A stretch of DNA of 11,135 bases from a virus. Taxonomy: Duplodnaviria > Heunggongvirae > Uroviricota > Caudoviricetes. Positions 1 through 10,902 of the stretch are shown here, one piece after another. The translations under genes were made by a program, and so were the position numbers. The DNA is taken from positions 1 to 11,135 of IMG/VR virus record IMGVR_UViG_2675903606_000019; one strand, 5' to 3'. The notes below the pieces were generated by a model. That model saw only the letters and a program-made list of their open reading frames with translations. It ran no database searches and was not told the DNA's origin. Each line of letters opens with the position of its first letter. Position 1 is the first letter of the stretch.

Positions 1-1218
1 ATGAACAAACTGAGCGATACCTTGCTAAGGAAACTTCATGGTAAGCCAGCGGAGAAAAACACGTTTTATAGTGATGGCGGAAACCTGAGCGTGAAATATT
101 TAACATCAGGGAAATTGACCTGGTATTTCACATACAGGGCCGGAACGGGAAGGGAGACACGACCCGAACGCATTAAGCTGGGAAGTTATCCTGATCTGAG
201 CCTGAAAGCAGCCAGGGAAAAAGCCGCACAGTGTCGCACATGGCTGGCTGAGGGGAAAAATCCACGTCATGAGATGAATTACACCGTACAGGAAGCGTTA
301 AAGCCCGTAACGGTTGGCGATGCGCTCACCTACTGGCTTGAGTATTACGTAAAGGAAAACCGCGTGGATTATATCGCCCTGAAAAGGCGACTTAATAATC
401 ACGTAATACAGCAGATTGGTGCTATGCCGCTGGATAAATGCGAGCTACGGCACTGGCTGGCCTGTTTTGACCAGGTGGCAAAGCGAACGCCTGTTACTGC
501 CGGATTCGTGCTACAGGCGTGCAAACAGGCGCTTAAGTTCTGCCGTAGGCGGCGCTATGCAATCAGCAACGTTCTGGACGATCTGAACGTGGCGGACGTT
601 GGGAAAAAACCGGATATAAGCGAACGTGTCTTAAGTAACAAAGAACTTGGCGAATTATTGCAGGCACTGGACAAAAAAATATTTTCCCCTTACTACGTCG
701 CGTTAATCCGCCTCCTGATTGTCTTCGGAGCCAGGACGGTAGAACTGAGGCTATCGGAGATCGGGGAGTGGGATTTTACGGAAATGCTATGGACCGTTCC
801 GAAGGAGCACAGCAAAACGAAGGTCGCAATATTCCGGCCCATACCGGAAGCGATCCTGCCGTTCGTCACGCAGCTGGTGGAGCAGAACAGGCACACGGGC
901 TTATTGCTGGGGGAAGCGAAACAGGAGGCCAGCGTATCGCAGTATGGAAGATTAGCGCACAGGAGGCTTAATCATCCTCACTGGTCACTGCATGACATCC
1001 GGCGCACCTTTACAACCATGCTGAACGATTTAGGCGTTGATCCGCATGTCGTGGAGCAGCTTACAGGTCATCAGATGCCAGGAATGCAGCGAGTTTATAA
1101 TCATTCCCGTTATCTGGATGCTAAACGCAATGCGCTGGATATGTGGACGGAGCGGTTAGGGATACTGGCGGGAACACATGAAAACGTAACCACGCTACCA
1201 GTAGCCAGAAGAAAATAA
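1..1218 (+). CDS. int: P4-family tyrosine integrase (site-specific recombinase)
   Basis: 405-aa ORF from the track. N-terminal arm-binding-type segment (GKLTWYFTYR, GSYPDLSLKAAREKA) and C-terminal tyrosine-recombinase signature (HDIRRT ... GHQMPGMQRVYNHSRY). Overall pattern matches P4/CP4-57 IntA-type integrases from memory. Confidence 0.9.
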   Translation: MNKLSDTLLRKLHGKPAEKNTFYSDGGNLSVKYLTSGKLTWYFTYRAGTGRETRPERIKLGSYPDLSLKAAREKAAQCRTWLAEGKNPRHEMNYTVQEALKPVTVGDALTYWLEYYVKENRVDYIALKRRLNNHVIQQIGAMPLDKCELRHWLACFDQVAKRTPVTAGFVLQACKQALKFCRRRRYAISNVLDDLNVADVGKKPDISERVLSNKELGELLQALDKKIFSPYYVALIRLLIVFGARTVELRLSEIGEWDFTEMLWTVPKEHSKTKVAIFRPIPEAILPFVTQLVEQNRHTGLLLGEAKQEASVSQYGRLAHRRLNHPHWSLHDIRRTFTTMLNDLGVDPHVVEQLTGHQMPGMQRVYNHSRYLDAKRNALDMWTERLGILAGTHENVTTLPVARRK

Positions 1219-1592: not shown

Positions 1593-1781
1593 GTGTTAAG
1601 CACTGATCGGTTTATACGTGAAAAAGAATGCGAAAAGCTAACAGGCCTTAGCCGCTCATGCCGCTACCGCCTGGAAAAGGCCGGACAATTCCCATCACGT
1701 CGTAAACTTGGCGGTCGTTCCGTTGGCTGGTCTTTATCCGAGGTTCTGGCCTGGAAGGATAGCTGCAAGGCAGTTCATTAA
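1593..1781 (+). CDS. alpA: AlpA-family prophage transcriptional regulator (small HTH protein)
   Basis: 62-aa ORF with GTG start at 1593 and RBS AAGGGGG about 6 nt upstream. Pattern EKLTGLSRSCRYRLEKAGQFPSRRKLGGRSVGWSLSEVLAW matches the AlpA signature (G.SR...Y.....G.FP....LG.RSVGW...E...W). Confidence 0.85.
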   Translation: MLSTDRFIREKECEKLTGLSRSCRYRLEKAGQFPSRRKLGGRSVGWSLSEVLAWKDSCKAVH

Positions 1782-3183: not shown

Positions 3184-3483
3184 ATGAGAACATATTTATC
3201 TGGCTTGACTGCCAGCGGTTATGCACACCCAAAAATTATCCCCGGCGCTATTTATCTGGATAAGAACGGTAACAGAGTAACGGTAAAAGAACTGATGTTT
3301 GACCGTGTTTATTTTATCCGTGATGGATATTCATTTCTTAGTTCGCTGAACGTGGAGATCTTTATTTGCAGATTCCGGCGGGAAATCCCGACTTCCAGAA
3401 ATAACCATGTGTCACGTGTGGATGTGGATAAAAAACTACAGGAACTGAAAAACATGATTGCCGCGTGGAGAGAGCAGAAATGA
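3184..3483 (+). CDS. Hypothetical protein (99 aa), AT-rich cargo-like gene
   Basis: Track ORF MRTYLSGLTASGYAHPKIIPGAIYLDKNGNRVTVKELMFDRVYFIRDGYSF... RBS GGGGA upstream. Its stop TGA (3481-3483) overlaps the ATG (3480-3482) of the primase gene (ATGA coupling). Confidence 0.65.
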   Translation: MRTYLSGLTASGYAHPKIIPGAIYLDKNGNRVTVKELMFDRVYFIRDGYSFLSSLNVEIFICRFRREIPTSRNNHVSRVDVDKKLQELKNMIAAWREQK

Positions 3484-5603
3484 AAAAAGCGCCAAATTTA
3501 AAACACCAGCCGCGTGACAAAATGACGGAAGTCATCATTTTTGCGGGTAGTGATGCGTGGGCACATGCGAAGCAGTGGCAGGAACAGGACGGGCGACTGG
3601 CTGGCGACAGCGTGCCTCCTGTCTGGCTTGGAGAGCAACAACTTGCCGAACTGGATAAGCTGCAAATTGTGCCGGAAGGCCGAAAATCAGTACGCATATT
3701 CAGGGCCGGACATCTTGAGCCAGTAATGATCAAGGCGATTGGTCAGAAGCTGGCGGCGGCAGGCGTACAGGATGCAAATTTTTACCCTGATGGAATGCAC
3801 GGTCAGGAGGTGGAGAACTGGCGCGAATATCTAGCCCGTGAGCGGCAGAATCTTTCTGATGGTCTGGTTATTGAGTTTCCGGTAAAGAAAAAAGATACCG
3901 GAAGCCATAGCGATGACGAATTAAAGCCACGCGTTGAAAGTCGCGCCGATGGTGTTTTCTGGGTAACGCCCAAAGTGGATAAGCAGTCAGGCGAAATTAT
4001 CCGGCCTGAGACGTGGTTATGTTCTCCGCTTGAACTACTGGGAACGGGGACGATCGGTAAAGAGCATTACCGCGTGATGCGCTGGAAAAAAACCGCAAAC
4101 CATGAAGTCATCACAATGGCGATCCCGTGTGGTGGTATCGGCGACCGTGACGGCTGGCGGTTACTTAAAGATCACGGGCTGAACGTGACAACCAACGGCA
4201 AATACAGGGCAATCCTGGCGGACTGGATGCAGTTAAGCGGAAGCCATGAGGAATGGCAGTTAAGCACAACAACGGGCTGGCATTTTGGCGCGTACATCAT
4301 GCCGGACGGTTCGATCATTGGTGAATCTGAAAAACCGATCCTGTTTACCGGAAAAAGCGCCGCGATTAACGGTTATTCCGTGGCGGGCACGGCGGATGGC
4401 TGGCGCGACAGCGTGGCGCGGCTGGCTGGCGGTAATGCCTCAATGATGCTGGGTGTGGCAACGTCACTGGCAGCGCCTTTAATTGGCCTTGTGGGTGCTG
4501 ACGGCTTCGGGGTGCATCTTTTCGAACAGTCATCGGCAGGTAAGACCACCACGCAGAACATCGCATCAAGTTTATGGGGAGAGCCGGACGCGCAGCGGCT
4601 GACCTGGTACGGCACGGCGTTAGGTATTGCCAATGAGGCCGAGGCCCATAATGACGGGCTTTTACCACTGGATGAGATAGGCCAGGCCGGAAATGCGCGG
4701 GAAGTGTCAACGTCTGCTTATACGCTGTTTAACGGTTCAGGGAAATTGCAGGGGGCGAAGGATGGCGGCAACAGGGAGATCAAACACTGGCGAACGGTGG
4801 CAATCAGCACCGGAGAAATGGACGTTGAGACATTCCTCAAAAGTGAGGGGATAAAAGTTAAGGCGGGGCAGCTTGTCCGACTGCTTAACGTTCCGATGGA
4901 AAAAGCCACGAAATTTCACGAATACAGCAACGGTAAGGAACATGCTGACGCGTTAAAGGATGCCTGGACAGCAAATCACGGGGCGGCGGGTCGTGAGTGG
5001 GTTAAATGGCTGGCAGGCCACCAGCAGGAGGCAAAGGATACGGTAAGGGAATGCCGCGAACGGTGGCGCAACCTGATACCGGAGAGCTACGGCGAGCAGG
5101 TCCACCGCGTGGGTGAACGTTTCGCCATACTGGAGGCCGCGCTTGTGCTTTCCGGTCATGTAACTGGCTGGGTCGTGCAGGAATGCCGCGACGCGATACA
5201 GCATAACTTTAATGCCTGGGTGAAGGAGTTCGGCACGGGTAACAGGGAATTTAAACAGATGGTTGAACAGGCTGAGGCGTTTTTGTCGTCGTTTGGGTTT
5301 AGCCGCTACCTTCCGTACCCCAATACAGATGAGCGTGATTTACCGATTAAAGAGCTTGCCGGATACAGAAAAGGGAGCATTCGCAACGAAGATGACGAGA
5401 TGCGCTATTACACGTTCCCGCACGTGTTTGAGAGTGAGATAGCGAAGGGATTTAATCCGGCGCATTTTGCGCGTGCCCTGGATGCTGCCGGAATGCTGGA
5501 GAAGGGAAGCGATCGCCGATACAAAAAAAAGGCGCTGGGCAAGATTGGGGGTAAGCAGCATGTTTTTTACGTGCTGATGTTCCAGCCTGATGATGAAGAT
5601 TAA
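3480..5603 (+). CDS. Replication primase/helicase-type protein (P4 alpha / PICI Pri-Rep-like; NTPase with Walker A motif)
   Basis: About 707 aa (track ORF 3465..5603; the ATG at 3480 with ATGA overlap is preferred, ATG at 3465 or 3522 possible). Contains Walker A-like SSAGKTTT and is followed directly by an iteron array. Size and position match the satellite/prophage primase-helicase class. The exact domain family needs a profile search. Confidence 0.8.
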   Translation: MKKAPNLKHQPRDKMTEVIIFAGSDAWAHAKQWQEQDGRLAGDSVPPVWLGEQQLAELDKLQIVPEGRKSVRIFRAGHLEPVMIKAIGQKLAAAGVQDANFYPDGMHGQEVENWREYLARERQNLSDGLVIEFPVKKKDTGSHSDDELKPRVESRADGVFWVTPKVDKQSGEIIRPETWLCSPLELLGTGTIGKEHYRVMRWKKTANHEVITMAIPCGGIGDRDGWRLLKDHGLNVTTNGKYRAILADWMQLSGSHEEWQLSTTTGWHFGAYIMPDGSIIGESEKPILFTGKSAAINGYSVAGTADGWRDSVARLAGGNASMMLGVATSLAAPLIGLVGADGFGVHLFEQSSAGKTTTQNIASSLWGEPDAQRLTWYGTALGIANEAEAHNDGLLPLDEIGQAGNAREVSTSAYTLFNGSGKLQGAKDGGNREIKHWRTVAISTGEMDVETFLKSEGIKVKAGQLVRLLNVPMEKATKFHEYSNGKEHADALKDAWTANHGAAGREWVKWLAGHQQEAKDTVRECRERWRNLIPESYGEQVHRVGERFAILEAALVLSGHVTGWVVQECRDAIQHNFNAWVKEFGTGNREFKQMVEQAEAFLSSFGFSRYLPYPNTDERDLPIKELAGYRKGSIRNEDDEMRYYTFPHVFESEIAKGFNPAHFARALDAAGMLEKGSDRRYKKKALGKIGGKQHVFYVLMFQPDDED

Positions 5604-5625
5604 TCCCCTGTGTGAGGAAAAAAAT

Positions 5626-5941
5626 TGCGGGTTATGCGGGTTATCCTGTGTATAAGTGTATTAAGTGCATGAATATAAAGGAAACCAATAACCCGCACGT
5701 AACCCGCAAAAGGGCATTTATAACCCGCAAAAGCACGATTATAACCCGCAGGCGAATAACTGAAGTAACACCGGACAGTCATGCGTAACCCGCAGAAAAA
5801 ACCCAGTTTGCGGGTTATTTTGAGCGTTTTGCGGGTTACGTGGTGAGCAAATAATAAACAGGGTGTTTTGCAAAATACTGATATAAAAGGATAAAAAATG
5901 GTTAGCACGCTAAGATAACCCAATAACCCGCATAACCCGCA
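5626..5941. repeat. Iteron array: about 11-12 copies of TAACCCGCA in both orientations (probable replication origin)
   Basis: Reverse copies (TGCGGGTTA) at 5626-5634, 5635-5643, 5809-5817, 5830-5838. Forward copies at 5689-5697, 5700-5708, 5721-5729, 5742-5750, 5786-5794, 5924-5932, 5933-5941, plus a degenerate copy near 5914-5922. AT-rich stretches at 5855-5960. Lies immediately downstream of the primase/helicase gene. Confidence 0.75.
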
Positions 5942-5973
5942 CATGTTTCTATATATATAAATTGAGGTGGCAA

Positions 5974-6225
5974 ATGACCAGAACACGCAGAGACAGAACA
6001 GAGCCAAAATATAAAGCGTTAGACATGACTGAGCACACCTTAAAGGTGGCAATCAGAACGATAGACCGCCACACGCGGGAAGGATACGCGAAGGAACATC
6101 CCGACCTGATAAGCGCATTCATGACCACGGCGGCGGCAAACTTTGCCACGCTGACAGAACGGGAGATTGCCGAAGCGGAACAGGTAACAACCATCAACGT
6201 TAAAACCGGAGAGGTGGAATCATGA
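5974..6225 (+). CDS. Hypothetical protein (83 aa from ATG 5974; the track starts at TTG 5962)
   Basis: RBS GAGG at 5964-5967 precedes ATG 5974. Its stop overlaps the ssb start (ATGA at 6222-6225). No family recognised. Confidence 0.6.
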   Translation: MTRTRRDRTEPKYKALDMTEHTLKVAIRTIDRHTREGYAKEHPDLISAFMTTAAANFATLTEREIAEAEQVTTINVKTGEVES

Positions 6226-6632
6226 CAGCACAGATAGCGGCTTACGGTCGGCTGGTGGACGACCCGCAGGTAAAACAGACCAGCAAGGGCACACCGATGA
6301 CGCTGGCGCGTATGGCGGTATCACTGCCATGCAGTCAGGCACAGGACGGACAGGCGACGTTATGGCTATCGGTCATCGCATTTGGTAAGCAGGCCGACTT
6401 CCTGGCTAAACATCAAAAAGGCGACGTTGCCAGCGTATCCGGCACGATGCAGGTAAGCCAGTGGACCGGACAGAACGGGGAGACGCGTCAGGGTTATCAG
6501 GTTATTGCAGACAGCGTAATCAGTGCCCGTGCGGCACGTCCTGGCGGGAACAGACGCAAAACCACAGGCGCACAGGGTAATCAGCCACCAGCGGGAGGCG
6601 ATGACCCTTACGGTGATGATATTCCGTTCTGA
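6222..6632 (+). CDS. ssb: Single-stranded DNA-binding protein (SSB), short form with canonical acidic C-terminal tip
   Basis: 136 aa. OB-fold-like core (GRLVDDPQV..., W...FGKQADFL..KG..V...G......W....G..R) and C-terminus ending DDPYGDDIPF, matching the conserved SSB DDDIPF tail that recruits partner proteins. Confidence 0.85.
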   Translation: MTAQIAAYGRLVDDPQVKQTSKGTPMTLARMAVSLPCSQAQDGQATLWLSVIAFGKQADFLAKHQKGDVASVSGTMQVSQWTGQNGETRQGYQVIADSVISARAARPGGNRRKTTGAQGNQPPAGGDDPYGDDIPF

Positions 6633-6642
6633 GGGGGTGACG

Positions 6643-6915
6643 ATGGTACATGACCGCATAGCGGAAGAACTCGAAGCGAAAGGATTTTACCGGAGGGCGG
6701 CGGCGCGATGGGGTGAAGTCATGATGCTGGTGGAGACAGACAAGGAACGGCATCACATCACGATGCGACGGCTGGAATGTTCCAGGAAGGCACAGAGGCC
6801 ACCGGAGCCGCCGGATAACTTCGGAGACCTGAGAAAGGCAGTCGATCGCACTTATGCTGAAATGGGTATAGATGGTGTAAGCGATGAAATATGGCGTAAT
6901 TACCCAGGCAGCTAA
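6643..6915 (+). CDS. PerC-like small transcriptional regulator (90 aa)
   Basis: ATG at 6643 with RBS GAGGGGG 5 nt upstream (the track ORF 6523..6915 is in frame but its 5' part overlaps ssb). Motif EELEAKGFYRRAAARWGEVMM resembles the PerC-family signature (G-[FW]-[WY]-RRAA-x-RW) as I recall it. Confidence 0.55.
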   Translation: MVHDRIAEELEAKGFYRRAAARWGEVMMLVETDKERHHITMRRLECSRKAQRPPEPPDNFGDLRKAVDRTYAEMGIDGVSDEIWRNYPGS

Positions 6916-6921
6916 TCAACA

Positions 6922-6943
6922 GCCGGAGTAATCCGGCTTTTTT
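6922..6943 (+). terminator. Rho-independent terminator after the replication module
   Basis: Stem GCCGGA/TCCGGC with GTAA loop followed by TTTTTT (6938-6943). Confidence 0.7.
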
Positions 6944-6956
6944 GTACCCAAAAAAA

Positions 6957-6992
6957 GCCCGATAAGTACAGGAGGCATCTTATCGGGCTTTT
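6957..6992. terminator. Second hairpin terminator, potentially bidirectional
   Basis: 10-bp stem GCCCGATAAG/CTTATCGGGC with 12-nt loop. A-run upstream (6950-6956), TTTT downstream, and a further T8 run at 7003-7010. Confidence 0.5.
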
Positions 6993-7071
6993 GCATATGA
7001 GGTTTTTTTTGGTGCACTGACACACATGATCGGGATCATCATTTCATAATTTGCAACACAACTCAACATCA

Positions 7072-7099
7072 TTGCATAAAATGCAATCATGATTATAAT
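7072..7099 (+). promoter_or_regulatory. Strong sigma70-like promoter for the capsid operon (-35 TTGCAT, 16-bp spacer, -10 TATAAT)
   Basis: TTGCAT at 7072-7077 and a perfect TATAAT at 7094-7099. Located about 55 nt upstream of the first late-operon start codon. Confidence 0.5.
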
Positions 7100-7103
7100 C
7101 AGA

Positions 7104-7119
7104 TCTGGATGAACATCCA
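7104..7119. promoter_or_regulatory. Perfect inverted repeat CTGGATG-AA-CATCCAG at the predicted transcription start
   Basis: Seen in the sequence. Followed within 6 nt by a T6 run (GATTTTTTAAG). Could be an operator or a 5' RNA hairpin/attenuator. A second dyad, ATGATC-GG-GATCAT, lies upstream at about 7026-7039. Confidence 0.45.
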
Positions 7120-7155
7120 GTTATGATTTTTTAAGTCAAAGAGGAATTTCTTACT

Positions 7156-7362
7156 ATGGCTGAAGAGAAAAAAGGCGGTGTTTCGGTGTACATAAGCCCC
7201 GACATCGTGAAGGCGCTCAAGGAACGCCACCAGCAGAACGTAAAAGCAGGCATTGCGGCAGGACTTGATCCGCTGGCGATGGTTGAGCCGTCAACAGGCT
7301 GGCAGGTACGCGCCTATTTACGCGCGGCGCTGGGTATGAATCAGGTTCACGGGGGTGAATAA
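7156..7362 (+). CDS. Hypothetical protein (68 aa), first gene of the capsid operon
   Basis: RBS GAGGA 10 nt upstream. Its stop TAA overlaps the major capsid gene start (TAATG at 7360-7364). No family recognised. Confidence 0.6.
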   Translation: MAEEKKGGVSVYISPDIVKALKERHQQNVKAGIAAGLDPLAMVEPSTGWQVRAYLRAALGMNQVHGGE

Positions 7363-8417
7363 TGACAGTAAAAGCAATAGCACTTAACACTAACCAGCTT
7401 TTTGTGTACCTGAATCGCGAGGATATTGCGGAATTTAAATTCAGTCCGCTGTTTACCGCGCTGTTTTTCCCGAACGTGGCGACATTCAACACACAGGACA
7501 TCATGTTAGATAACCTGGATATTGAAGAAGTCACTATGTCGGCGTTTTGTTCGCCTATGGTGGGTAGCCAGGTTCAGCGCGATAAAGGGTACGAAACAAG
7601 CATTATTCGCCCTGGCTACATGAAGCCAAAACACGAAATCGATCCATTAAAAACAATAATGCGCATGGCTGGAGAAGATCCAGCACAGCTTAACGACCCT
7701 ACCTACCGCCGTATGCGCCTGATTACTGGCAACATGCGCCGCCAGATAAACGCCATTAAAGCGCGCGTGGAATGGCTGGCGGTAAATGCGGTAACGACCG
7801 GAAAAAACATCATTGAGGGCGAAGGCATAGAGCGCTATGAAATCGACTGGAAGATACCGGAAAAAAACATCATAGAGCAGGCCGACGGTAAAAAATGGTC
7901 AGAGCAGGACAAAGACATACACGACCCAATCTATGACATTGAGCTATACGCAGATCAGGCAGGTTGCCCCGCCAACGTCATGATTATGGGCGTTGATGTA
8001 TGGCGCATGTTACGCAGCTTTAAAAAATTCCGTGAACTGTACGATCTCTCCCGTGGTTCAGAATCCGCCGCAGAGCTGGCATGTAAAAACCTGGGCGAAG
8101 TGGTGAGCTTTAAAGGCTATCTTGGTGATCTGGCCCTTATCGTCTATTCCGGCAAATACACTGACAGCGACGGCACAGAAAAATATTTCCTTGAGCCTGA
8201 TTTGCTGGTCCTGGGCAACACCAACAATAAAGGGCTGGTGGCCTATGGTGCGATTATGGAACAGGAAGCGGTAAGAACGGGCGCAACGCAAAACATGTTT
8301 TACCCGAAAAACTGGATTGAAGACGGCGATCCGGCGATTGAGTACGTGCAGACACACAGCGCACCGCAGCCTGTTCCGGCAGATATTCGCAAATTTGTTA
8401 CCGTCAAAATTGGTTAA
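7362..8417 (+). CDS. Major capsid protein, lambda gpE family
   Basis: 351 aa. Multiple blocks match phage lambda gpE as recalled: FKFSPLFTALFF (lambda FKFDPLFLRLFF), PGYMKPKHEIDP (PGYVKPKHEVNP), EDPAQLNDPTYRRMRLITGNMRRQ (EDPQNLADPAYRRRRIIMQNMRDE), YPKNWIEDGDPAIEYVQTHSAP (YPKNWVTTGDPAREFTMIQSAP). Confidence 0.9.
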   Translation: MTVKAIALNTNQLFVYLNREDIAEFKFSPLFTALFFPNVATFNTQDIMLDNLDIEEVTMSAFCSPMVGSQVQRDKGYETSIIRPGYMKPKHEIDPLKTIMRMAGEDPAQLNDPTYRRMRLITGNMRRQINAIKARVEWLAVNAVTTGKNIIEGEGIERYEIDWKIPEKNIIEQADGKKWSEQDKDIHDPIYDIELYADQAGCPANVMIMGVDVWRMLRSFKKFRELYDLSRGSESAAELACKNLGEVVSFKGYLGDLALIVYSGKYTDSDGTEKYFLEPDLLVLGNTNNKGLVAYGAIMEQEAVRTGATQNMFYPKNWIEDGDPAIEYVQTHSAPQPVPADIRKFVTVKIG

Positions 8418-8428
8418 CGGTGGATTCT

Positions 8429-8764
8429 ATGAACACTCCATACATTGAGTTATTTGCAGGCAGTCAGCAGGTATCAACGACGCTGGTACATTTTGCCGCT
8501 GATGCTGGCGTTATTCAGGAATTTACCCCGCTGATGCTGGCGGACAATGGCGAGTTTAAGCCGTGGGATGGTCAGGAATCTGGCAAGGCTGTTTATCTGA
8601 CCTCGTACCCCGTTGACACGTCGACGCAGAAATCAGCACAGTGCTATAAGACGGGGATATTCAATATCGCCGCCGTTAACTGGCCTGAGAGCGTCGACAC
8701 CGATGCGAAAAAATGCGCCGCCTTTGCGGGTTCTGGCGTATCCGTTCAGCCGCTGGCCCGATAA
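8429..8764 (+). CDS. Head decoration protein, lambda gpD family
   Basis: 111 aa from ATG 8429 (the track starts at GTG 8420); RBS GGTGGA 5 nt upstream. Matches lambda gpD blocks: TPLMLADNGEFKPWDG (lambda TPLMLDTSSRKLVAWDG), YKTGIFNIAAVNWPESVDTDAKKCAAFAGSGVSV ([35 protein letters not shown]). Confidence 0.85.
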   Translation: MNTPYIELFAGSQQVSTTLVHFAADAGVIQEFTPLMLADNGEFKPWDGQESGKAVYLTSYPVDTSTQKSAQCYKTGIFNIAAVNWPESVDTDAKKCAAFAGSGVSVQPLAR

Positions 8765-8776
8765 GCAGGGGGAACG

Positions 8777-9190
8777 ATGGCAACGAATGAAAGCATCATG
8801 GCGCTACCGCTGGCGAGTAAATTTAAAGCCGAAGCGCGGGCAATGGCTGACAGAGGGTTATCAACCTACGAGGCCGTATATCAACTCAACAAACTGGAAG
8901 AACAGGACAAGCCGCGCGCTGATGCGATTATGGCGCTTCATGAACATAACGACTATCAGCCGCTGTTACGTGCAATGGCAAACGTGCCATGTATTAGCGT
9001 CGATAATGCTCGTGAAATCCTGAACATGACCATAGAGCAGGAGCGCCCAAAGGTTGCACCAGAGCTTACCGCAGCCTTTGAAAACTTTATGGACATGCAC
9101 AGCCCGCAAGCCGTATCAGCTGGCATGGCATACGATGGCAGAAACCAGGGCGATGACGGCGACATCGATCACATACTGAAAACCATCTGA
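8777..9190 (+). CDS. Hypothetical protein (137 aa), last gene of the capsid operon
   Basis: RBS AGGGGGA 4 nt upstream of the ATG. Acidic C-terminus. No resemblance noted to lambda FI/FII/W as I recall them. Followed by a strong terminator. Confidence 0.65.
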   Translation: MATNESIMALPLASKFKAEARAMADRGLSTYEAVYQLNKLEEQDKPRADAIMALHEHNDYQPLLRAMANVPCISVDNAREILNMTIEQERPKVAPELTAAFENFMDMHSPQAVSAGMAYDGRNQGDDGDIDHILKTI

Positions 9191-9196
9191 GACAAG

Positions 9197-9220
9197 GCCG
9201 GAGAAATCCGGCTTTTTTTT
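9197..9220 (+). terminator. Strong rho-independent terminator (GNRA tetraloop hairpin plus T8)
   Basis: Stem GCCGGA/TCCGGC with GAAA loop and 8 T (9213-9220). The stem is identical to that of the terminator at 6922-6943. Confidence 0.8.
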
Positions 9221-9298
9221 ACGGGTCCTTTCCGGCATATGGACCCGTTACGGGGCGGCGACCTCGCGGTTTTTCGCTATTTATGAGCCTTTTCAGGG
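9221..9298. other. Lambda-type cos site (cosQ-like, cosN 12-nt cohesive end GGGCGGCGACCT at 9253-9264, start of cosB)
   Basis: ACGGGTCCTTTCCGG...GTTACG-GGGCGGCGACCT-CGCGGTTTTTCGCTATTTATGA closely matches the right and left termini of phage lambda as I recall them (right end ...ACGGGTCCTTTCCGGTGATCCGACAGGTTACG, left end GGGCGGCGACCTCGCGGGTTTTCGCTATTTATGA...). Sequence diverges from lambda after about 9298. Confidence 0.8.
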
Positions 9299-9358
9299 GG
9301 GTGGTGGTGGTTTTGTTGTTTGCTCTATCTTTATGAATGAAAAGGGAAAGATGCAAAC

Positions 9359-9396
9359 AATACACCAACCTGAAGCAGTAATTAAGTTGGTGTATT
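9359..9396. repeat. Perfect 11-bp inverted repeat AATACACCAAC-N16-GTTGGTGTATT abutting the terS start codon
   Basis: Read directly from the sequence. The right arm ends 2 nt before ATG 9398. Candidate cosB-type binding site or a translational-control hairpin. Confidence 0.5.
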
Positions 9397-9397
9397 A

Positions 9398-9940
9398 ATG
9401 AAATCGCACCTGATGAACAAAAAAAACATGGCGAAAAGCTGCCGTGTAAGTGCGACAGCGTTCGACAAGTGGGGAGTGACTCCCGTTGAACGTAAAGGCC
9501 GTGAGGCGTTTTACGATGTTGCCAGCGTGATAGACAATAGGGTTAACAATGCAATTAGCCAGCTTACAAACGACAAAGGCGATATTGATGATGATGAACT
9601 CTTACGAGTCAGGATCAGATTACTGACAGCACAGGCGGAGGCGCAGGAACTTAAAAACGAGCGCGATCGCGGTGACGTGATCGATACTGAGTTTTGCCTG
9701 TACGCGCTTTCAAAGCTGGCGAGTCAGATTTCATCAATCATGGACAGCCTCCCGCTTACTATGCAAAGGAGCTTCCCACAGATTACCCCCGCCATGCTGG
9801 ATAGGCTTAAAAGGGAAGTGGTTAAAGCCTGTAATGCCAGTGCCAGAGTTGCCGACAACCTCCCACAGATACTGGCTGATTACTTGAAAGAAACAACCGG
9901 AAACGTACCGGAAAAGTTGCAGCCGAATAAAGATAAGTAA
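9398..9940 (+). CDS. Terminase small subunit, lambda Nu1 family
   Basis: 180 aa. C-terminal two thirds align with lambda Nu1 as recalled: RLLTAQAEAQELKNERDRGDVIDTEFCLYALSKLASQISSIMDSLPLTMQRSFPQ (lambda RLTRAQADAQELKNARDSAEVVETAFCTFVLSRIAGEIASILDGLPLSVQRRFPE). N-terminal region is more divergent but still shows NKK...W...G.PV.R.G....YD.A.VI. Confidence 0.85.
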   Translation: MKSHLMNKKNMAKSCRVSATAFDKWGVTPVERKGREAFYDVASVIDNRVNNAISQLTNDKGDIDDDELLRVRIRLLTAQAEAQELKNERDRGDVIDTEFCLYALSKLASQISSIMDSLPLTMQRSFPQITPAMLDRLKREVVKACNASARVADNLPQILADYLKETTGNVPEKLQPNKDK

Positions 9941-9951
9941 CGTAGTACGCT

Positions 9952-10233
9952 ATGACTGAATCCGAAATACTGCGATTAATCCGCCGCGTCTCTGGAATCA
10001 GCCAGCAGGCTGACGAACAGACCACGCAGCCGGACAGCGTGACAGCCGAAAACTATGCGCGTGTTGTTGCTGAGGTGATGCGCCGTGATGGTATAGAACT
10101 TAATGGCGTGGATATGCGCAACATACGAACCAGAGTTCTTGAGTTGCTGGCCTACCGTCGCCGCGTGGAGATGTATCGGGAGAAGGAGAAAATAACGTAC
10201 CACTGGAAGAAGCCGGAGCGGTTGCGGCGGTAA
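9952..10233 (+). CDS. Hypothetical protein (93 aa) downstream of terS
   Basis: Track ORF MTESEILRLIRRVSGISQQADEQ... It occupies the position where lambda has the large terminase gene A, but is far too small to be a terminase. No family recognised. Confidence 0.55.
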   Translation: MTESEILRLIRRVSGISQQADEQTTQPDSVTAENYARVVAEVMRRDGIELNGVDMRNIRTRVLELLAYRRRVEMYREKEKITYHWKKPERLRR

Positions 10234-10526
10234 CTGGTTGATATTCCCGACGGACCAAAAATGGGTGGCTACATCCCTCGCTTCTGAGGACTGTTAACAA
10301 GCTGCCTGAAAGACAGTCACAAACTACGAAATTTTCGCAGTTTAATTAATGATCAGCTTAATCGCTAACCCGCTGATATTTTCGGAAACCTCAATTTGAG
10401 GAAGTCGGCGCGGTAACTCGCTGAACTTTAAGCAAAGCGCAAAATTGCGCTTGCTGAATAATCATTATGATTACGCAGATGATTAAGGAATGACCGAAGG
10501 CGGAAATTCGCCTGTGGTTAATGGGG

Positions 10527-10546
10527 GAGTTGCAGATCTGCAACTC
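10527..10546. repeat. Perfect 20-bp palindrome GAGTTGCAGATCTGCAACTC
   Basis: Read directly from the sequence. A perfect 20-bp palindrome is very unlikely by chance in 11 kb. Confidence 0.7.
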
Positions 10547-10552
10547 GACCAT

Positions 10553-10639
10553 GAAACTACGGAAACTACCCGTAGTTTGGGTAGTAAGAGTAACACCCAG
10601 ATTTTGGGTCTTACTCGTGATACCCAAATTTGGGGTATC
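10553..10639. repeat. Half-site array (AAACTAC x2, then GTAGTTT and a partial GGGTAGT) followed by two adjacent stable hairpins / palindromic sites
   Basis: AAACTAC at 10554-10560 and 10563-10569, GTAGTTT at 10572-10578, partial copy at 10579-10585. Hairpin GAGTAA-c-ACCCA-gattt-TGGGT-c-TTACTC (10588-10616). Hairpin GATACCC-aaatttg-GGGTATC (10619-10639). The two ACCCA...GGGT units are direct repeats of a palindromic site about 27 bp apart. Confidence 0.55.
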
Positions 10640-10902
10640 AGTGGCAACCATAACGACTTTCGTTACGGTTGATGCTTTTACCCCATTGGGGGAAAGGTAT
10701 TACGATAATCATAACACCTACCGAACAGGTAAAGCCCACCAGCCTGATTAACGTTTAACCGGAAAAAAATTCCGGTAGGTGGGGATCCCCATATCGACAT
10801 TAACGCCCCTCATGAATTGGTGCGCTTCCCCCTGGAAAGATGATCCGCCTGTATATTTCTTGTGTCTATTTGTTCCACGTTGTTTCATACAGTGCACCGA
10901 AC

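What the first reader, a model, noticed from the sequence alone, without database searches (positions are those of the whole stretch)
9398..10233. Nu1-family small terminase with conserved large-terminase-interaction region, followed by a 93-aa protein where gene A would sit
The C-terminal two thirds, which in lambda Nu1 contact the large terminase, are strongly conserved, while the N-terminal DNA-binding part is more divergent. That fits hijacking of helper large terminase with altered DNA specificity. The small downstream ORF could modulate holoenzyme assembly, functionally analogous to packaging-redirection proteins described for Gram-negative PICIs, though I cannot verify any homology.
Basis: partly seen in the sequence, partly recalled or inferred. 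Interest (0 to 1): 0.65.

Follow-up and report, generated by a model that had tools for sequence, protein, structure and literature searches.

The report
Satellite island's own small terminase
This stretch is the DNA-packaging module of an E. coli phage satellite (a PICI): a lambda-type cos site, the island's own Nu1-family small terminase and a conserved satellite gene of unknown role. It is a common, already catalogued type whose mechanism has not been tested.

Summary
ORF 9398-9940 is a full-length Nu1-family small terminase (TerS). ORF 9952-10233 is a real, conserved 93-aa gene.

The window is an EcCICFT073-family PICI with int, alpA, a DUF927 primase, SSB, PerC, lambda E-like and D-like capsid genes, and no TerL, portal or protease.

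A cos site lies just upstream of terS, with cosN at 9253-9264. Its cosQ-cosN part is phage-type. Its cosB is private, with R3/R2/R1-like repeats.

- **Domains.** The DNA-binding domain is N15-type, not diverged lambda-type. The best-conserved part is the central self-assembly domain. The C-terminal 40 residues, which bind TerL in lambda, are only 30% identical to lambda.
- **Cassette.** cosB plus terS occupies the slot that cosB plus rppA fills in EcCICFT073.
- **Natural chimera.** One island swapped the DNA-binding domain and cosB together and kept the island-type C-terminal half.

Most likely the island TerS binds its own cosB and recruits a helper gpA-type TerL. This is inferred, not shown.

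The 93-aa gene is backbone. It also follows rppA in EcCICFT073 and terL in cf-PICIs, and it is absent from phages. A terminase-modulating role is not supported.

This is a new member of a known kind.

The parts
1..1218 (+). Tyrosine integrase at the left end of the island (backbone context). The island sits in tqsA.
   Evidence: Pfam Arm-DNA-bind_3 and Phage_integrase. The tqsA fragments flank the related island in L002.
1593..1781 (+). AlpA-family regulator (backbone context).
   Evidence: Pfam PF05930, E 5e-18.
3465..5603 (+). DUF927 primase/replication protein (backbone context).
   Evidence: Pfam PF06048, E 1.6e-48.
7362..8417 (+). Homologue of the lambda E major capsid protein, in the morphogenesis module upstream of cos.
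   Evidence: Pfam Phage_cap_E, E 5.5e-49. 43% identity to lambda E, E 1e-83.
8420..8764 (+). Homologue of the lambda D head-decoration protein.
   Evidence: Pfam HDPD, E 3.7e-18. tblastn with lambda D, E 2e-11.
8777..9190 (+). 137-aa protein of unknown function, possibly scaffold-like.
   Evidence: PHROG 1999 (unknown function) over its full length. It also matches positions 494-567 of 583 of PHROG 53 'head maturation protease', E 7e-10. No similarity to lambda FI.
9194..9215 (+). Terminator-like GC-rich hairpin followed by a T run, after the 137-aa gene.
   Evidence: Inverted repeat I4.
9217..9294 (+). cosQ-cosN segment, the part acted on by TerL. Homology with EcCICFT073 ends at 9294, which is cos bp 42.
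   Evidence: 71-bp comparison: 67/71 to PhiR5_1, 68/71 to EcCICFT073 cos1, 60/71 to lambda, 58/71 to phage 21, 57/71 to N15. Break point.
9253..9264 (+). The 12-nt cohesive-end sequence GGGCGGCGACCT, identical to lambda. It is the only copy in the window.
9306..9323 (+). R3-like TerS-binding repeat GGTGGTTTTGTTGTTTGC at cos bp 54-71. It contains the TTGTTGTTT core also present in N15 R3.
   Evidence: Lambda R3 lies at bp 53-64. The core TGGTGGTGGTTTTGTTGTT is invariant in 7 islands. A related GGTGGTGGTGTTGTTATTT occurs in the Enterobacteriaceae islands.
9353..9370 (-). R2-like repeat in inverted orientation, at cos bp 101-118.
   Evidence: 14 of 18 positions complementary to the R3-like repeat; 4 of 500 dinucleotide shuffles reach this. 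Lambda R2 lies at bp 109-120 on the minus strand.
9385..9397 (+). R1-like partial repeat GTTGGTGTATT, abutting the terS start codon.
   Evidence: Inverted repeat I2, 11/11 complementary to part of the R2-like repeat. Less conserved in L014 and L015.
9398..9940 (+). terS: a 180-aa Nu1-family small terminase. Residues 1-47 form an N15-type winged-HTH DNA-binding domain. Residues 68-126 form the conserved self-assembly core. Residues 127-166 form an island-type C-terminal tail, followed by a 14-residue extension absent from phage TerS.
   Evidence: dN/dS 0.08-0.19.
9952..10233 (+). orf93: a conserved, satellite-restricted backbone gene of unknown function.

Best explanation
The region is the packaging-specificity cassette of an EcCICFT073-family phage-inducible chromosomal island (PICI).

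**What is shown by the sequence**
- A cos site lies directly upstream of terS. Its cosQ-cosN part is of the lambda/PhiR5_1 type.
- Its cosB part is private and carries R3-, R2- and R1-like repeats at lambda-like positions.
- terS encodes a full-length Nu1-family TerS with an N15-type DNA-binding domain, the conserved Nu1 self-assembly core and an island-specific C-terminal tail.
- The island encodes no TerL, portal or protease.

**What is inferred**
- After induction by a lambdoid helper, the island TerS binds the cosB repeats through its winged-HTH domain.
- Through its C-terminal tail it recruits the helper's gpA-type TerL, which nicks the phage-type cosN and packages island concatemers.
- This draws TerL away from the phage.
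- The helper is probably a PhiR5_1-like lambdoid phage.

The cassette (cosB plus terS) is an alternative to the cosB plus rppA cassette in the same slot of the same backbone.

The 93-aa gene downstream is not part of the terminase system. It is a satellite backbone gene that flanks whichever packaging module an E. coli PICI carries. Its role is unknown. My guess, with low confidence, is a general island life-cycle or regulatory function.
For: **Family and architecture.** Searches place the ORF in the Nu1 family. One search shows that only lambda E, D and Nu1 have homologues in the window.

**cos site.**
- cosN is identical to lambda, and the 71-bp cosQ-cosN segment is 67/71 identical to PhiR5_1.
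- cosB diverges from lambda, N15 and EcCICFT073 after about bp 40.
- The R3-like and inverted R2-like repeats lie at bp 54-71 and 101-118, against lambda's 53-64 and 109-120. Only 4 of 500 shuffles reach the repeat score.

**Co-conservation of the DNA-binding domain and cosB.**
- The domain is nearly invariant (dN 0.009-0.018) and the cosB core is invariant across 7 islands whose terS differs by up to about 14% in nucleotides.
- TerS proteins that are 57-59% identical, from other Enterobacteriaceae, keep both the recognition helix and a GGTGGTGGTGTTGTT cosB.

**Natural domain swap (L018).** TerS residues 1-110 are 92% PhiR5_1-type and residues 111-180 are 91% island-type. cosB has switched to the 21/PhiR5_1 type.

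**Cassette boundaries.** Homology with EcCICFT073 runs at 93% up to cos bp 42 and resumes exactly at the orf93 start codon.

**Selection and abundance.** terS dN/dS is 0.08-0.19. It is present in 759 of 5,426 complete E. coli genomes, against 97 for rppA.

**orf93 as backbone.**

**Literature.** PMC9026076 gives the TerS domain roles, the role of R3, and the fact that Rpp lacks the TerL-binding tail. PMC6092414 reports that some Gram-negative PICIs encode TerS.
Against: - No binding or transfer experiment exists for this TerS in the literature I could search.
- The TerL-contact tail is only 30% identical to lambda Nu1 and at most 50% identical to the phage TerS proteins compared by domain. The best match to the whole C-terminal half in 50,697 phage records is PhiR5_1 at 60.6%. 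No cognate TerL is identified.
- The two TerS-encoding E. coli islands tested in 2018 (IHE3034 and 18098) were not mobilised by their resident prophages (PMC6092414). I did not check whether their TerS is of this type.
- The L018 variant shows that a private DNA specificity is dispensable.
- No IHF consensus lies between the R3-like and R2-like repeats.
- A terminator-like hairpin precedes cos, and no sigma-70-like promoter was found before terS.
- The AlphaFold model has low confidence (pLDDT 64). Foldseek matches to MerR-type winged-HTH domains are not significant.
Confidence: 0.6

Rival explanations
1. Rpp-like mechanism. The island TerS forms mixed oligomers with the helper's TerS through the conserved central domain or the DNA-binding-domain dimer. 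It reaches TerL only through the phage TerS, retargeting the mixed complex to the island cosB and poisoning phage packaging.
For: - The central self-assembly domain is the part best conserved with phage TerS: 53% to lambda and 63% to PhiR5_1, against 30-50% for the tail.
- The gene sits exactly in the rppA slot.
- RppA's own DNA-binding domain is TerS-like: PHROG 57 matches its residues 7-47, E 3.9e-8.
- Rpp works by binding phage TerS (PMC6739421, PMC9026076).
Against: - The protein aligns with lambda Nu1 out to lambda residue 180, so it keeps the tail that Rpp proteins lack (PMC9026076).
- There is no sequence similarity to RppA (E 1.4).
- The island-type C-terminal half is kept through the L018 domain swap. 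This suggests it has its own partner.
Confidence: 0.2
2. The 93-aa protein modulates terminase holoenzyme assembly or redirects packaging, taking the place of gene A functionally or acting like Rpp or Ppi.
For: - It lies 11 bp after terS in this window.
- It is conserved and under purifying selection.
- It always lies at the distal end of the packaging module.
- A 'hypothetical gene 1792' of the EcCIEDL933 packaging module reduced transfer when mutated (bioRxiv 10.1101/2022.09.08.507074). I could not establish whether that gene is the orf93 homologue.
Against: - The same gene (86-91% identity) follows rppA in EcCICFT073 and an unrelated P27-family TerS plus TerL in cf-PICIs.
- It is absent from the Nu1-TerS islands of other Enterobacteriaceae.
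- In most relatives it is separated from terS by 73-275 bp that contain an inverted cos2.
- It has no similarity to gpA or RppA.
- It has no Pfam, NCBIfam or PADLOC match and no fold match.
- Only c1503 of the EcCICFT073 post-ori genes inhibited lambda (PMC6739421).
Confidence: 0.07
3. Decaying prophage remnant. The Nu1-like gene and the cos site are leftovers of a lambdoid prophage and have no function.
For: Lambda-like E, D and Nu1 genes and a cos site occur without the rest of a phage.
Against: - The element has the full PICI architecture: int, alpA, primase and the size of a PICI.
- The gene order differs from lambda (E, D, X, cos, Nu1).
- Purifying selection acts on terS.
- The same module is found in 759 genomes and in other genera.
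- The sister element EcCICFT073 is experimentally mobile (PMC6092414).
Confidence: 0.03

Closest known systems
EcCICFT073 and its Rpp system (Fillol-Salom 2018 and 2019; Murialdo & Feiss 2022)
   Same: - Same island backbone and gene order: SSB, PerC, 68-aa gene, E-like, D-like, 137-aa gene, cos, specificity gene, orf93.
- 93% nucleotide identity up to cos bp 42.
- Phage-type cosQ-cosN with a private cosB.
- The specificity gene lies directly downstream of cos1.
   Different: - The slot holds a 180-aa full-length Nu1-family TerS instead of the 144-aa RppA. There is no sequence similarity between them.
- The TerS keeps the C-terminal region that Rpp lacks.
- cosB differs in sequence.
- This window lacks the second, inverted cos2.
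- The mechanism here is untested.
Lambda Nu1 and N15 gp1 small terminases
   Same: - Same family and three-part layout.
- cos lies directly upstream, with an R3-like repeat at about bp 54.
- The DNA-binding domain is 60% identical to N15 gp1, and the TTGTTGTTT core of N15 R3 is shared.
   Different: - There is no overlapping or adjacent terL.
- The C-terminal tail is 30% identical to both proteins.
- A 14-residue C-terminal extension is present.
- The shared R3 core sits 9 bp further from cosN than in N15.
- The gene lies in a satellite, not a phage.
SaPI TerS (TerS_S) of pac-type Staphylococcus aureus pathogenicity islands
   Same: The concept is the same: a satellite-encoded small terminase that recognises the satellite's own packaging site and uses the helper's TerL (as summarised in PMC6739421 and PMC6092414).
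   Different: - A different TerS family and headful (pac) packaging, not cos.
- SaPIs add Ppi to block the phage TerS. No Ppi-like gene is evident here.
cf-PICI EcCIEDL933
   Same: - It shares the replication backbone: 97.6% identity over window 4912-6943.
- It shares the orf93 homologue at 91% nucleotide identity.
- A closely similar cf-PICI, in strain FDAARGOS_1281, occupies the same tqsA site.
   Different: The cf-PICI encodes a complete HK97-type capsid, portal, protease, connectors, HNH, P27-type TerS and TerL. This island has only E-like, D-like and Nu1-like genes.
Escherichia phage PhiR5_1 (lambdoid)
   Same: - Closest phage to the TerS C-terminal half (60.6%).
- Closest phage to the cosQ-cosN segment (67/71).
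- It is the closest phage relative found for the DNA-binding-domain half of the L018 chimera.
   Different: - It is a complete phage with TerL.
- Its DNA-binding domain and cosB are of the 21/lambda type, not the N15 type.

Membership tests
Nu1-family small terminase (Pfam PF07471) | Profile match above the curated threshold. | tested here: met
   83 bits against a cut-off of 30. PHROG 57 over the full length, E 2.9e-53.
Nu1-family small terminase (Pfam PF07471) | [quoted passage not shown] | tested here: met
   - 60% identity to the N15 gp1 DNA-binding domain; tblastn E 4e-16.
- The AF2 secondary structure of residues 5-54 is strand-helix-helix-strand-strand-helix.
- Structural matches to MerR-type winged-HTH domains are only suggestive (E 0.25).
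- The sequence search of the PDB found no match at E<=1. It did not recover a lambda Nu1 DNA-binding-domain structure, which I recall as PDB 1J9I.
Nu1-family small terminase (Pfam PF07471) | Central self-assembly domain. | tested here: met
   Residues 68-126 are 53% identical to lambda and 63% to PhiR5_1. Oligomerisation itself is not testable here.
Nu1-family small terminase (Pfam PF07471) | C-terminal tail that binds the cognate TerL. | not testable with these tools
   The tail is present and alignable to the end of lambda Nu1. Identity is only 30% to lambda and 50% to PhiR5_1. The partner is unknown.
Nu1-family small terminase (Pfam PF07471) | Cognate cos site with cosB repeats directly upstream. 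| tested here: met
   cosN at 9253-9264, with R3-, R2- and R1-like repeats. cosB and the DNA-binding domain co-vary in L018.
Nu1-family small terminase (Pfam PF07471) | Overlapping or adjacent terL (gene A), as in phages. | tested here: not met
   No gpA homologue anywhere in the window. This is expected for a satellite and does not bear on protein-family membership.
Gram-negative PICI (EcCICFT073 type) | Integrase, AlpA regulator and primase/replication module in the canonical order; size about 10-15 kb. | tested here: met
   About 11-12 kb between the tqsA fragments in the related L002.
Gram-negative PICI (EcCICFT073 type) | No tail or lysis genes and no complete head module. | tested here: met
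   Only E-, D- and Nu1-like genes match lambda head genes. Pfam hits of the ORFs scanned include no tail or lysis function.
Gram-negative PICI (EcCICFT073 type) | Induction, packaging and transfer by a helper phage. | not testable with these tools
   Shown for EcCICFT073 (PMC6092414) but not for the TerS-type islands.
Rpp (redirecting phage packaging) proteins | Sequence homology to RppA, RppB or RppC. | tested here: not met
   TerS against RppA, E 1.4. orf93 against RppA, E 4.3. The PDB sequence search found no match to any solved protein at E<=1, so none to a solved Rpp structure either.
Rpp (redirecting phage packaging) proteins | About 144-153 aa: a winged-HTH domain plus a C-terminal part that lacks the TerL-binding tail. 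| tested here: not met
   The TerS is 180 aa and aligns with lambda Nu1 to its last residues. Rpp lengths are given in PMC6739421.
Rpp (redirecting phage packaging) proteins | Encoded directly downstream of the island cos1. | tested here: met
   Same slot, and the cassette boundaries are defined. This holds for terS, not for orf93.
cf-PICI | Own TerL, portal, protease and head-tail connectors. | tested here: not met
   compare EcCIEDL933.

The most novel reading that the evidence does not exclude
The island-specific C-terminal half of the TerS was kept intact when the DNA-binding domain and cosB were swapped, and it ends in a 14-residue extension that no phage TerS has. It could be a dedicated TerL-capture module that out-competes the helper's TerS. 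One protein would then do in a cos system what the SaPI TerS and Ppi do together. It might also work with the island's own E-like, D-like and scaffold-like proteins to build or mark capsids. That would make these very common islands an intermediate between classical PICIs and capsid-forming PICIs.
Probability: 0.15. Interest if true: 0.7.

Novelty: new member of a known kind. Interest (0 to 1): 0.4.

Why it matters
TerS-encoding PICIs of E. coli were catalogued in 2018, and TerS is a core marker in SatelliteFinder. The only cos-type hijacking mechanism worked out in Gram-negative PICIs, however, is Rpp.

In complete E. coli genomes this terS is about eight times more frequent than rppA: 759 against 97 of 5,426. 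Carriers include O157:H7, O26 and Nissle 1917.

If the inferred mechanism holds, the commonest route by which lambdoid phages mobilise E. coli islands is direct capture of TerL by a satellite TerS. The exchangeable cosB-plus-gene cassette would set which helper and which DNA get packaged.

The natural chimera and the cassette boundaries give ready-made constructs for testing TerS-cosB and TerS-TerL specificity.

Tried and rejected
- **orf93 as a TerL fragment or a relative of FI or Rpp.** No similarity was found.
- **The 255-bp spacer of relatives as a gene A remnant.** It is not one. It holds an inverted second cos site.
- **The 137-aa ORF as lambda FI.** No similarity.
- **orf93 function by profile search.** Pfam, NCBIfam and PADLOC found nothing, and PHROG 1561 has no assigned function.
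- **orf93 function by fold.** The AF2 model is a three-helix protein with pLDDT 70. Foldseek against the PDB and BFVD gave no hit with E<0.1. Weak DARPin/ankyrin sequence hits were judged spurious.
- **A deeper orf93 family.** Only 37 representatives exist in 1.8 billion proteins, so no deep alignment was possible.
- **TerS fold search.** Not significant. The PDB sequence search found no match, and nothing for the Nu1 DNA-binding domain.
- **An IHF site between the R3-like and R2-like repeats.** None within one mismatch of the consensus.
- **Identity of 'hypothetical gene 1792' of EcCIEDL933.** It could not be resolved from the text, the supplements or cluster names.
- **A paper characterising a Nu1-type PICI TerS.** None was found. 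The library is limited to open-access papers and bioRxiv.
- **The hairpin-rich element at 10516-10700.** No Rfam family, even at E<=1. Eight homologues showed no compensatory changes.
Full report
**What the window is**

The 11.1-kb window is an integrated phage satellite of the EcCICFT073 (PICI) family. It carries:
- a tyrosine integrase (1-1218)
- AlpA (1593-1781; PF05930)
- a DUF4222 protein
- a DUF927 primase (3465-5603)
- SSB and PerC
- a lambda E-like major capsid gene (7362-8417)
- a lambda D-like decoration gene (8420-8764)
- a 137-aa gene (8777-9190)
- the two ORFs of the finding.

The window ends in the 5' part of tqsA on the minus strand. Related islands are flanked by tqsA fragments. 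tblastn with the lambda head and packaging proteins finds only E (43% identity), D and Nu1. It finds no A (TerL), W, B (portal), C, Nu3, FI or FII.

**Check of the observation**

ORF 9398-9940 is a Nu1-family small terminase. Pfam PF07471 scores 83 bits against a cut-off of 30. PHROG 57 matches the full length. BLASTP against lambda Nu1 gives 35% identity, E 1e-34, aligned to lambda residue 180.

I quantified identity by domain on a multiple alignment:

| Island residues | Region | lambda | N15 gp1 | PhiR5_1 |
|---|---|---|---|---|
| 1-47 | DNA-binding domain | 36% | 60% | 30% |
| 48-67 | linker | 10% | 25% | 10% |
| 68-126 | central self-assembly domain | 53% | 49% | 63% |
| 127-166 | C-terminal 40 residues | 30% | 30% | 50% |

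According to Murialdo & Feiss (PMC9026076), lambda TerS has an N-terminal winged-HTH DNA-binding domain and a central oligomerisation domain. TerL binding lies in the C-terminal 30-40 residues. The conserved part, though, is the oligomerisation core, not the TerL-contact tail.

The DNA-binding domain is not a drifted lambda domain. tblastn with residues 1-67 finds N15 gp1 (55.7%), an identical-scoring Enterobacter phage, and Pseudomonas and Alteromonas phages. It finds no lambda, 21 or phi80 type. The C-terminal 113 residues are closest to Escherichia phage PhiR5_1 (60.6%), then PhiR12 (51%), then lambda (45%). The protein looks like a mosaic and ends in a 14-residue extension (GNVPEKLQPNKDK) that phage TerS proteins lack.

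The 12-nt lambda cohesive end GGGCGGCGACCT occurs once, at 9253-9264. That is 145 bp upstream of the terS ATG.

The 71 bp spanning cosQ-cosN compare as follows:

| Compared with | Identical of 71 |
|---|---|
| EcCICFT073 cos1 | 68 |
| PhiR5_1 | 67 |
| lambda | 60 |
| phage 21 | 58 |
| N15 | 57 |

The spacer GGCATATGGACCCGTTACG is shared only with PhiR5_1 and the islands. From about cos bp 40 the sequence is unrelated to lambda.

In this private cosB there are three repeats:
- an R3-like repeat, GGTGGTTTTGTTGTTTGC, at bp 54-71
- an inverted R2-like copy at bp 101-118 (14 of 18 complementary; 4 of 500 dinucleotide shuffles reach this)
- a partial direct R1-like copy abutting the start codon.

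Lambda has R3 at bp 53-64, R2 inverted at 109-120 and R1 at 155-166. The R3-like repeat contains TTGTTGTTT, which is also the core of N15's R3 (N15 bp 52-60; R3 was mapped to bp 48-60 per PMC9026076). This fits the N15-type recognition helix: island TAFDKWGV against N15 QAFDKWGV. No IHF consensus lies between the repeats.

**Evidence that TerS and cosB work as a pair**

1. Across seven islands whose terS differs by up to about 14% in nucleotides, the DNA-binding domain is almost invariant (dN 0.009-0.018). The cosB core TGGTGGTGGTTTTGTTGTT is invariant. The C-terminal 54 residues vary most (dN up to 0.17). Overall dN/dS is 0.08-0.19.
2. TerS homologues 57-59% identical occur in Enterobacter, Citrobacter and other Enterobacteriaceae, in PICI-like islands (cap_E, HDPD, AlpA-like, Nu1, no TerL). 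In the island I examined (L019), TerS keeps the recognition helix, and a cos site follows with cosB GGTGGTGGTGTTGTTATTT at bp 51-69.
3. Strain 2014C-4135 is a natural chimera, with the same backbone in the same tqsA site. Its TerS residues 1-110 are 92% identical to PhiR5_1 and 31% to the window protein. Residues 111-180 are 91% identical to the window protein and 57% to PhiR5_1. Its cosB has switched to the 21/PhiR5_1 type: the R3 region is AAAATCATGTCGGTAC against AAAATCGTGTCGGTAC in phage 21, and the R1 region is nearly identical to that of PhiR5_1 (19 of 20 bases).

The DNA-binding domain and cosB therefore move together. The island-type C-terminal half is what the family keeps.

**Relation to Rpp**

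By chance I fetched EcCICFT073 itself. It has the same order: 68-aa gene, E-like, D-like, 137-aa gene, cos1, a 144-aa gene (RppA, c1503), then a 93-aa gene.

The window aligns with it at 93% identity from 6046 to 9294, which is cos bp 42. Homology then stops, and resumes exactly at 9952, the orf93 start codon, at 89%. So cosB plus terS here replaces cosB plus rppA plus cos2 there.

TerS and RppA share no detectable similarity (E 1.4). RppA's N-terminal winged-HTH domain does hit the TerS PHROG (E 3.9e-8). Rpp proteins lack the TerL-binding tail and need the phage TerS to bring TerL (PMC9026076). This protein has the tail.

In most relatives a second, inverted cosQ-cosN (cos2) lies between terS and orf93. 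Two cos sites were also described for EcCICFT073, where deleting cos2 raised transfer (PMC6092414). The window has no cos2 and only 11 bp between the genes, as does strain HZDC01.

**Abundance**

By megablast at 80% coverage or more, this terS occurs in 759 of 5,426 complete E. coli genomes, and rppA in 97. The rppA count excludes more diverged Rpp types.

A sensitive blastn with the DNA-binding-domain coding stretch finds 767 genomes. All are at least 80% identical and annotated only as small terminase, as in the island loci inspected, with no weaker class of matches. So I see no resident prophage Nu1 with this DNA-binding domain. The limits are the DNA-level sensitivity and the fact that the source genome is unknown.

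**The 93-aa ORF**

It is a real gene.
- 1022 clusters match, and nearly all of those listed are 93 aa long.
- dN/dS is 0.19-0.33 in the more diverged pairs.

It is not tied to this terminase.
- It is 86% identical to the EcCICFT073 gene after rppA.
- At 91% nucleotide identity it is the last gene of the cf-PICI EcCIEDL933, directly after an unrelated P27-family TerS and a TerL. The same holds for a cf-PICI in the same tqsA site.
- It is absent from the Enterobacteriaceae Nu1-TerS islands, where FRG and DUF3892 genes follow terS.
- It is essentially absent from 50,697 phage records.

The family is narrow, with 37 representatives among 1.8 billion proteins. It has no Pfam, NCBIfam or PADLOC match, and PHROG 1561 has no assigned function. 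The AF2 model is a three-helix protein with pLDDT 70 and no fold relatives. It has no similarity to gpA or RppA.

In EcCICFT073, expressing the post-ori genes one at a time showed that only c1503 blocked lambda (PMC6739421). I infer, but cannot confirm, that the orf93 homologue was among those tested.

The cf-PICI preprint mentions a 'hypothetical gene 1792' whose mutation severely reduced transfer. I could not establish whether that is this gene. This remains an open lead.

**Mechanism**

*Shown by sequence:*
- a phage-type cosQ-cosN with a private cosB
- a full-length Nu1-type TerS
- co-variation of the DNA-binding domain with cosB
- no TerL
- purifying selection.

*Inferred:* TerS binds the cosB repeats, recruits a helper gpA-type TerL through its tail, and so directs cutting at cosN and packaging of the island. 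The helper is probably a PhiR5_1-like lambdoid phage. Three observations point that way: the cosQ-cosN identity, the closest TerS C-terminal half, and the recombination partner of the chimera.

The main rival is an Rpp-like route through mixed oligomers with the phage TerS. The central domain being the best-conserved part favours it.

**Status in the literature**

Fillol-Salom et al. 2018 already noted that some Gram-negative PICIs, including those of E. coli IHE3034 and 18098, encode TerS. Resident prophages did not mobilise those islands. I did not check whether their TerS is of this type. SatelliteFinder uses a capsid-morphogenesis gene and TerS as PICI core components. I found no paper that characterises a Nu1-type PICI TerS.

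**Verdict**

This is an ordinary but mechanistically untested member of a known class.

Noticed in passing
window 10516-10700 (+), core 10524-10645: A hairpin-rich, unannotated element lies downstream of orf93. Its RNA minimum free energy is -93.7 kcal/mol, z = -8.4 against shuffles, and it consists of four or five different palindromes. The 122-nt core is present in 664 of 5,426 E. coli genomes and is far better conserved than its flanks. In several islands it starts about 40 nt after orf93. It matches no Rfam family even at E<=1. Eight homologues show no compensatory changes, and one T-to-C change breaks a predicted pair. It could be a DNA-level site rather than an RNA.
   Followed up: partly
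window 8777-9190: The 137-aa ORF between the D-like gene and cos matches the C-terminal end (positions 494-567 of 583) of PHROG 53 'head maturation protease', E 7e-10. That is where protease-scaffold fusions carry the scaffold part, so the ORF may be a Nu3-like scaffold. One RefSeq homologue is labelled 'phage head-tail connector protein'. With the E-like and D-like genes, the island may encode a partial capsid kit.
   Followed up: partly
L002:13699-13953, L014:1120-1394, L015:1120-1192, against window 9941-9951: Most related islands carry a second, inverted cosQ-cosN (cos2) between terS and orf93. This window and HZDC01 (L013) have lost it, leaving an 11-bp spacer, and L015 keeps a truncated copy. 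Deleting cos2 raised EcCICFT073 transfer (PMC6092414).
   Followed up: yes
L018 (NZ_CP027310.1, strain 2014C-4135) 1982-2812: A natural chimeric island TerS. Residues 1-110 are PhiR5_1-type (92%) and residues 111-180 are island-type (91%). cosB has switched to the 21/PhiR5_1 type in the same backbone and the same tqsA site.
   Followed up: yes
L013 (NZ_CP118681.1, strain HZDC01) about 430-470: This island has the same cosB and TerS but a different cohesive-end sequence (GGGCGTCAGGCG in place of GGGCGGCGACCT). This suggests adaptation to a helper with a different cosN. I did not identify a phage with that end.
   Followed up: no
window 9300-9311 against L008:7612-7620: The proposed Rpp-binding core of EcCICFT073 cosB (ACCACCACC, cos bp 55-63; PMC9026076) is the reverse complement of the (GGT)4 run at cos bp 48-59 of this island. 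This may be chance in a simple repeat, or an inverted relic of a shared site.
   Followed up: no
L019-L021 (metagenome and Logan contigs), 4003-12513: In other Enterobacteriaceae the PICI-like island (RepA-type helicase, cap_E, HDPD, AlpA-like, Nu1 TerS, FRG and DUF3892 accessory genes) is directly followed by a truncated lambda-E-like gene (254-258 aa) and then FI, FII, Z, U, V, G, T and H tail genes. The satellite seems to be inserted in, or recombined with, the capsid gene of a lambdoid prophage.
   Followed up: no
L013-L015 and L022, upstream of cos: The cos-terS-orf93 module also occurs directly after an AlpA/HTH-family gene of about 127 aa instead of the capsid genes, and at other chromosomal sites such as next to clpS. 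The module therefore travels between different island backbones.
   Followed up: partly
window 4912-6943 and 9952-10245 against L003 (EDL933): The replication-proximal backbone is 97.6% identical to the cf-PICI EcCIEDL933. Homology resumes exactly at orf93. The whole morphogenesis and packaging block between PerC and orf93 thus behaves as an exchangeable module among E. coli PICIs.
   Followed up: yes
H179 and H181 (E. coli Nissle 1917), terS 5' part: The probiotic strain Nissle 1917 carries a terS whose first 203 nt are 100% identical to the window. It may be a convenient strain in which to test this island type.
   Followed up: no
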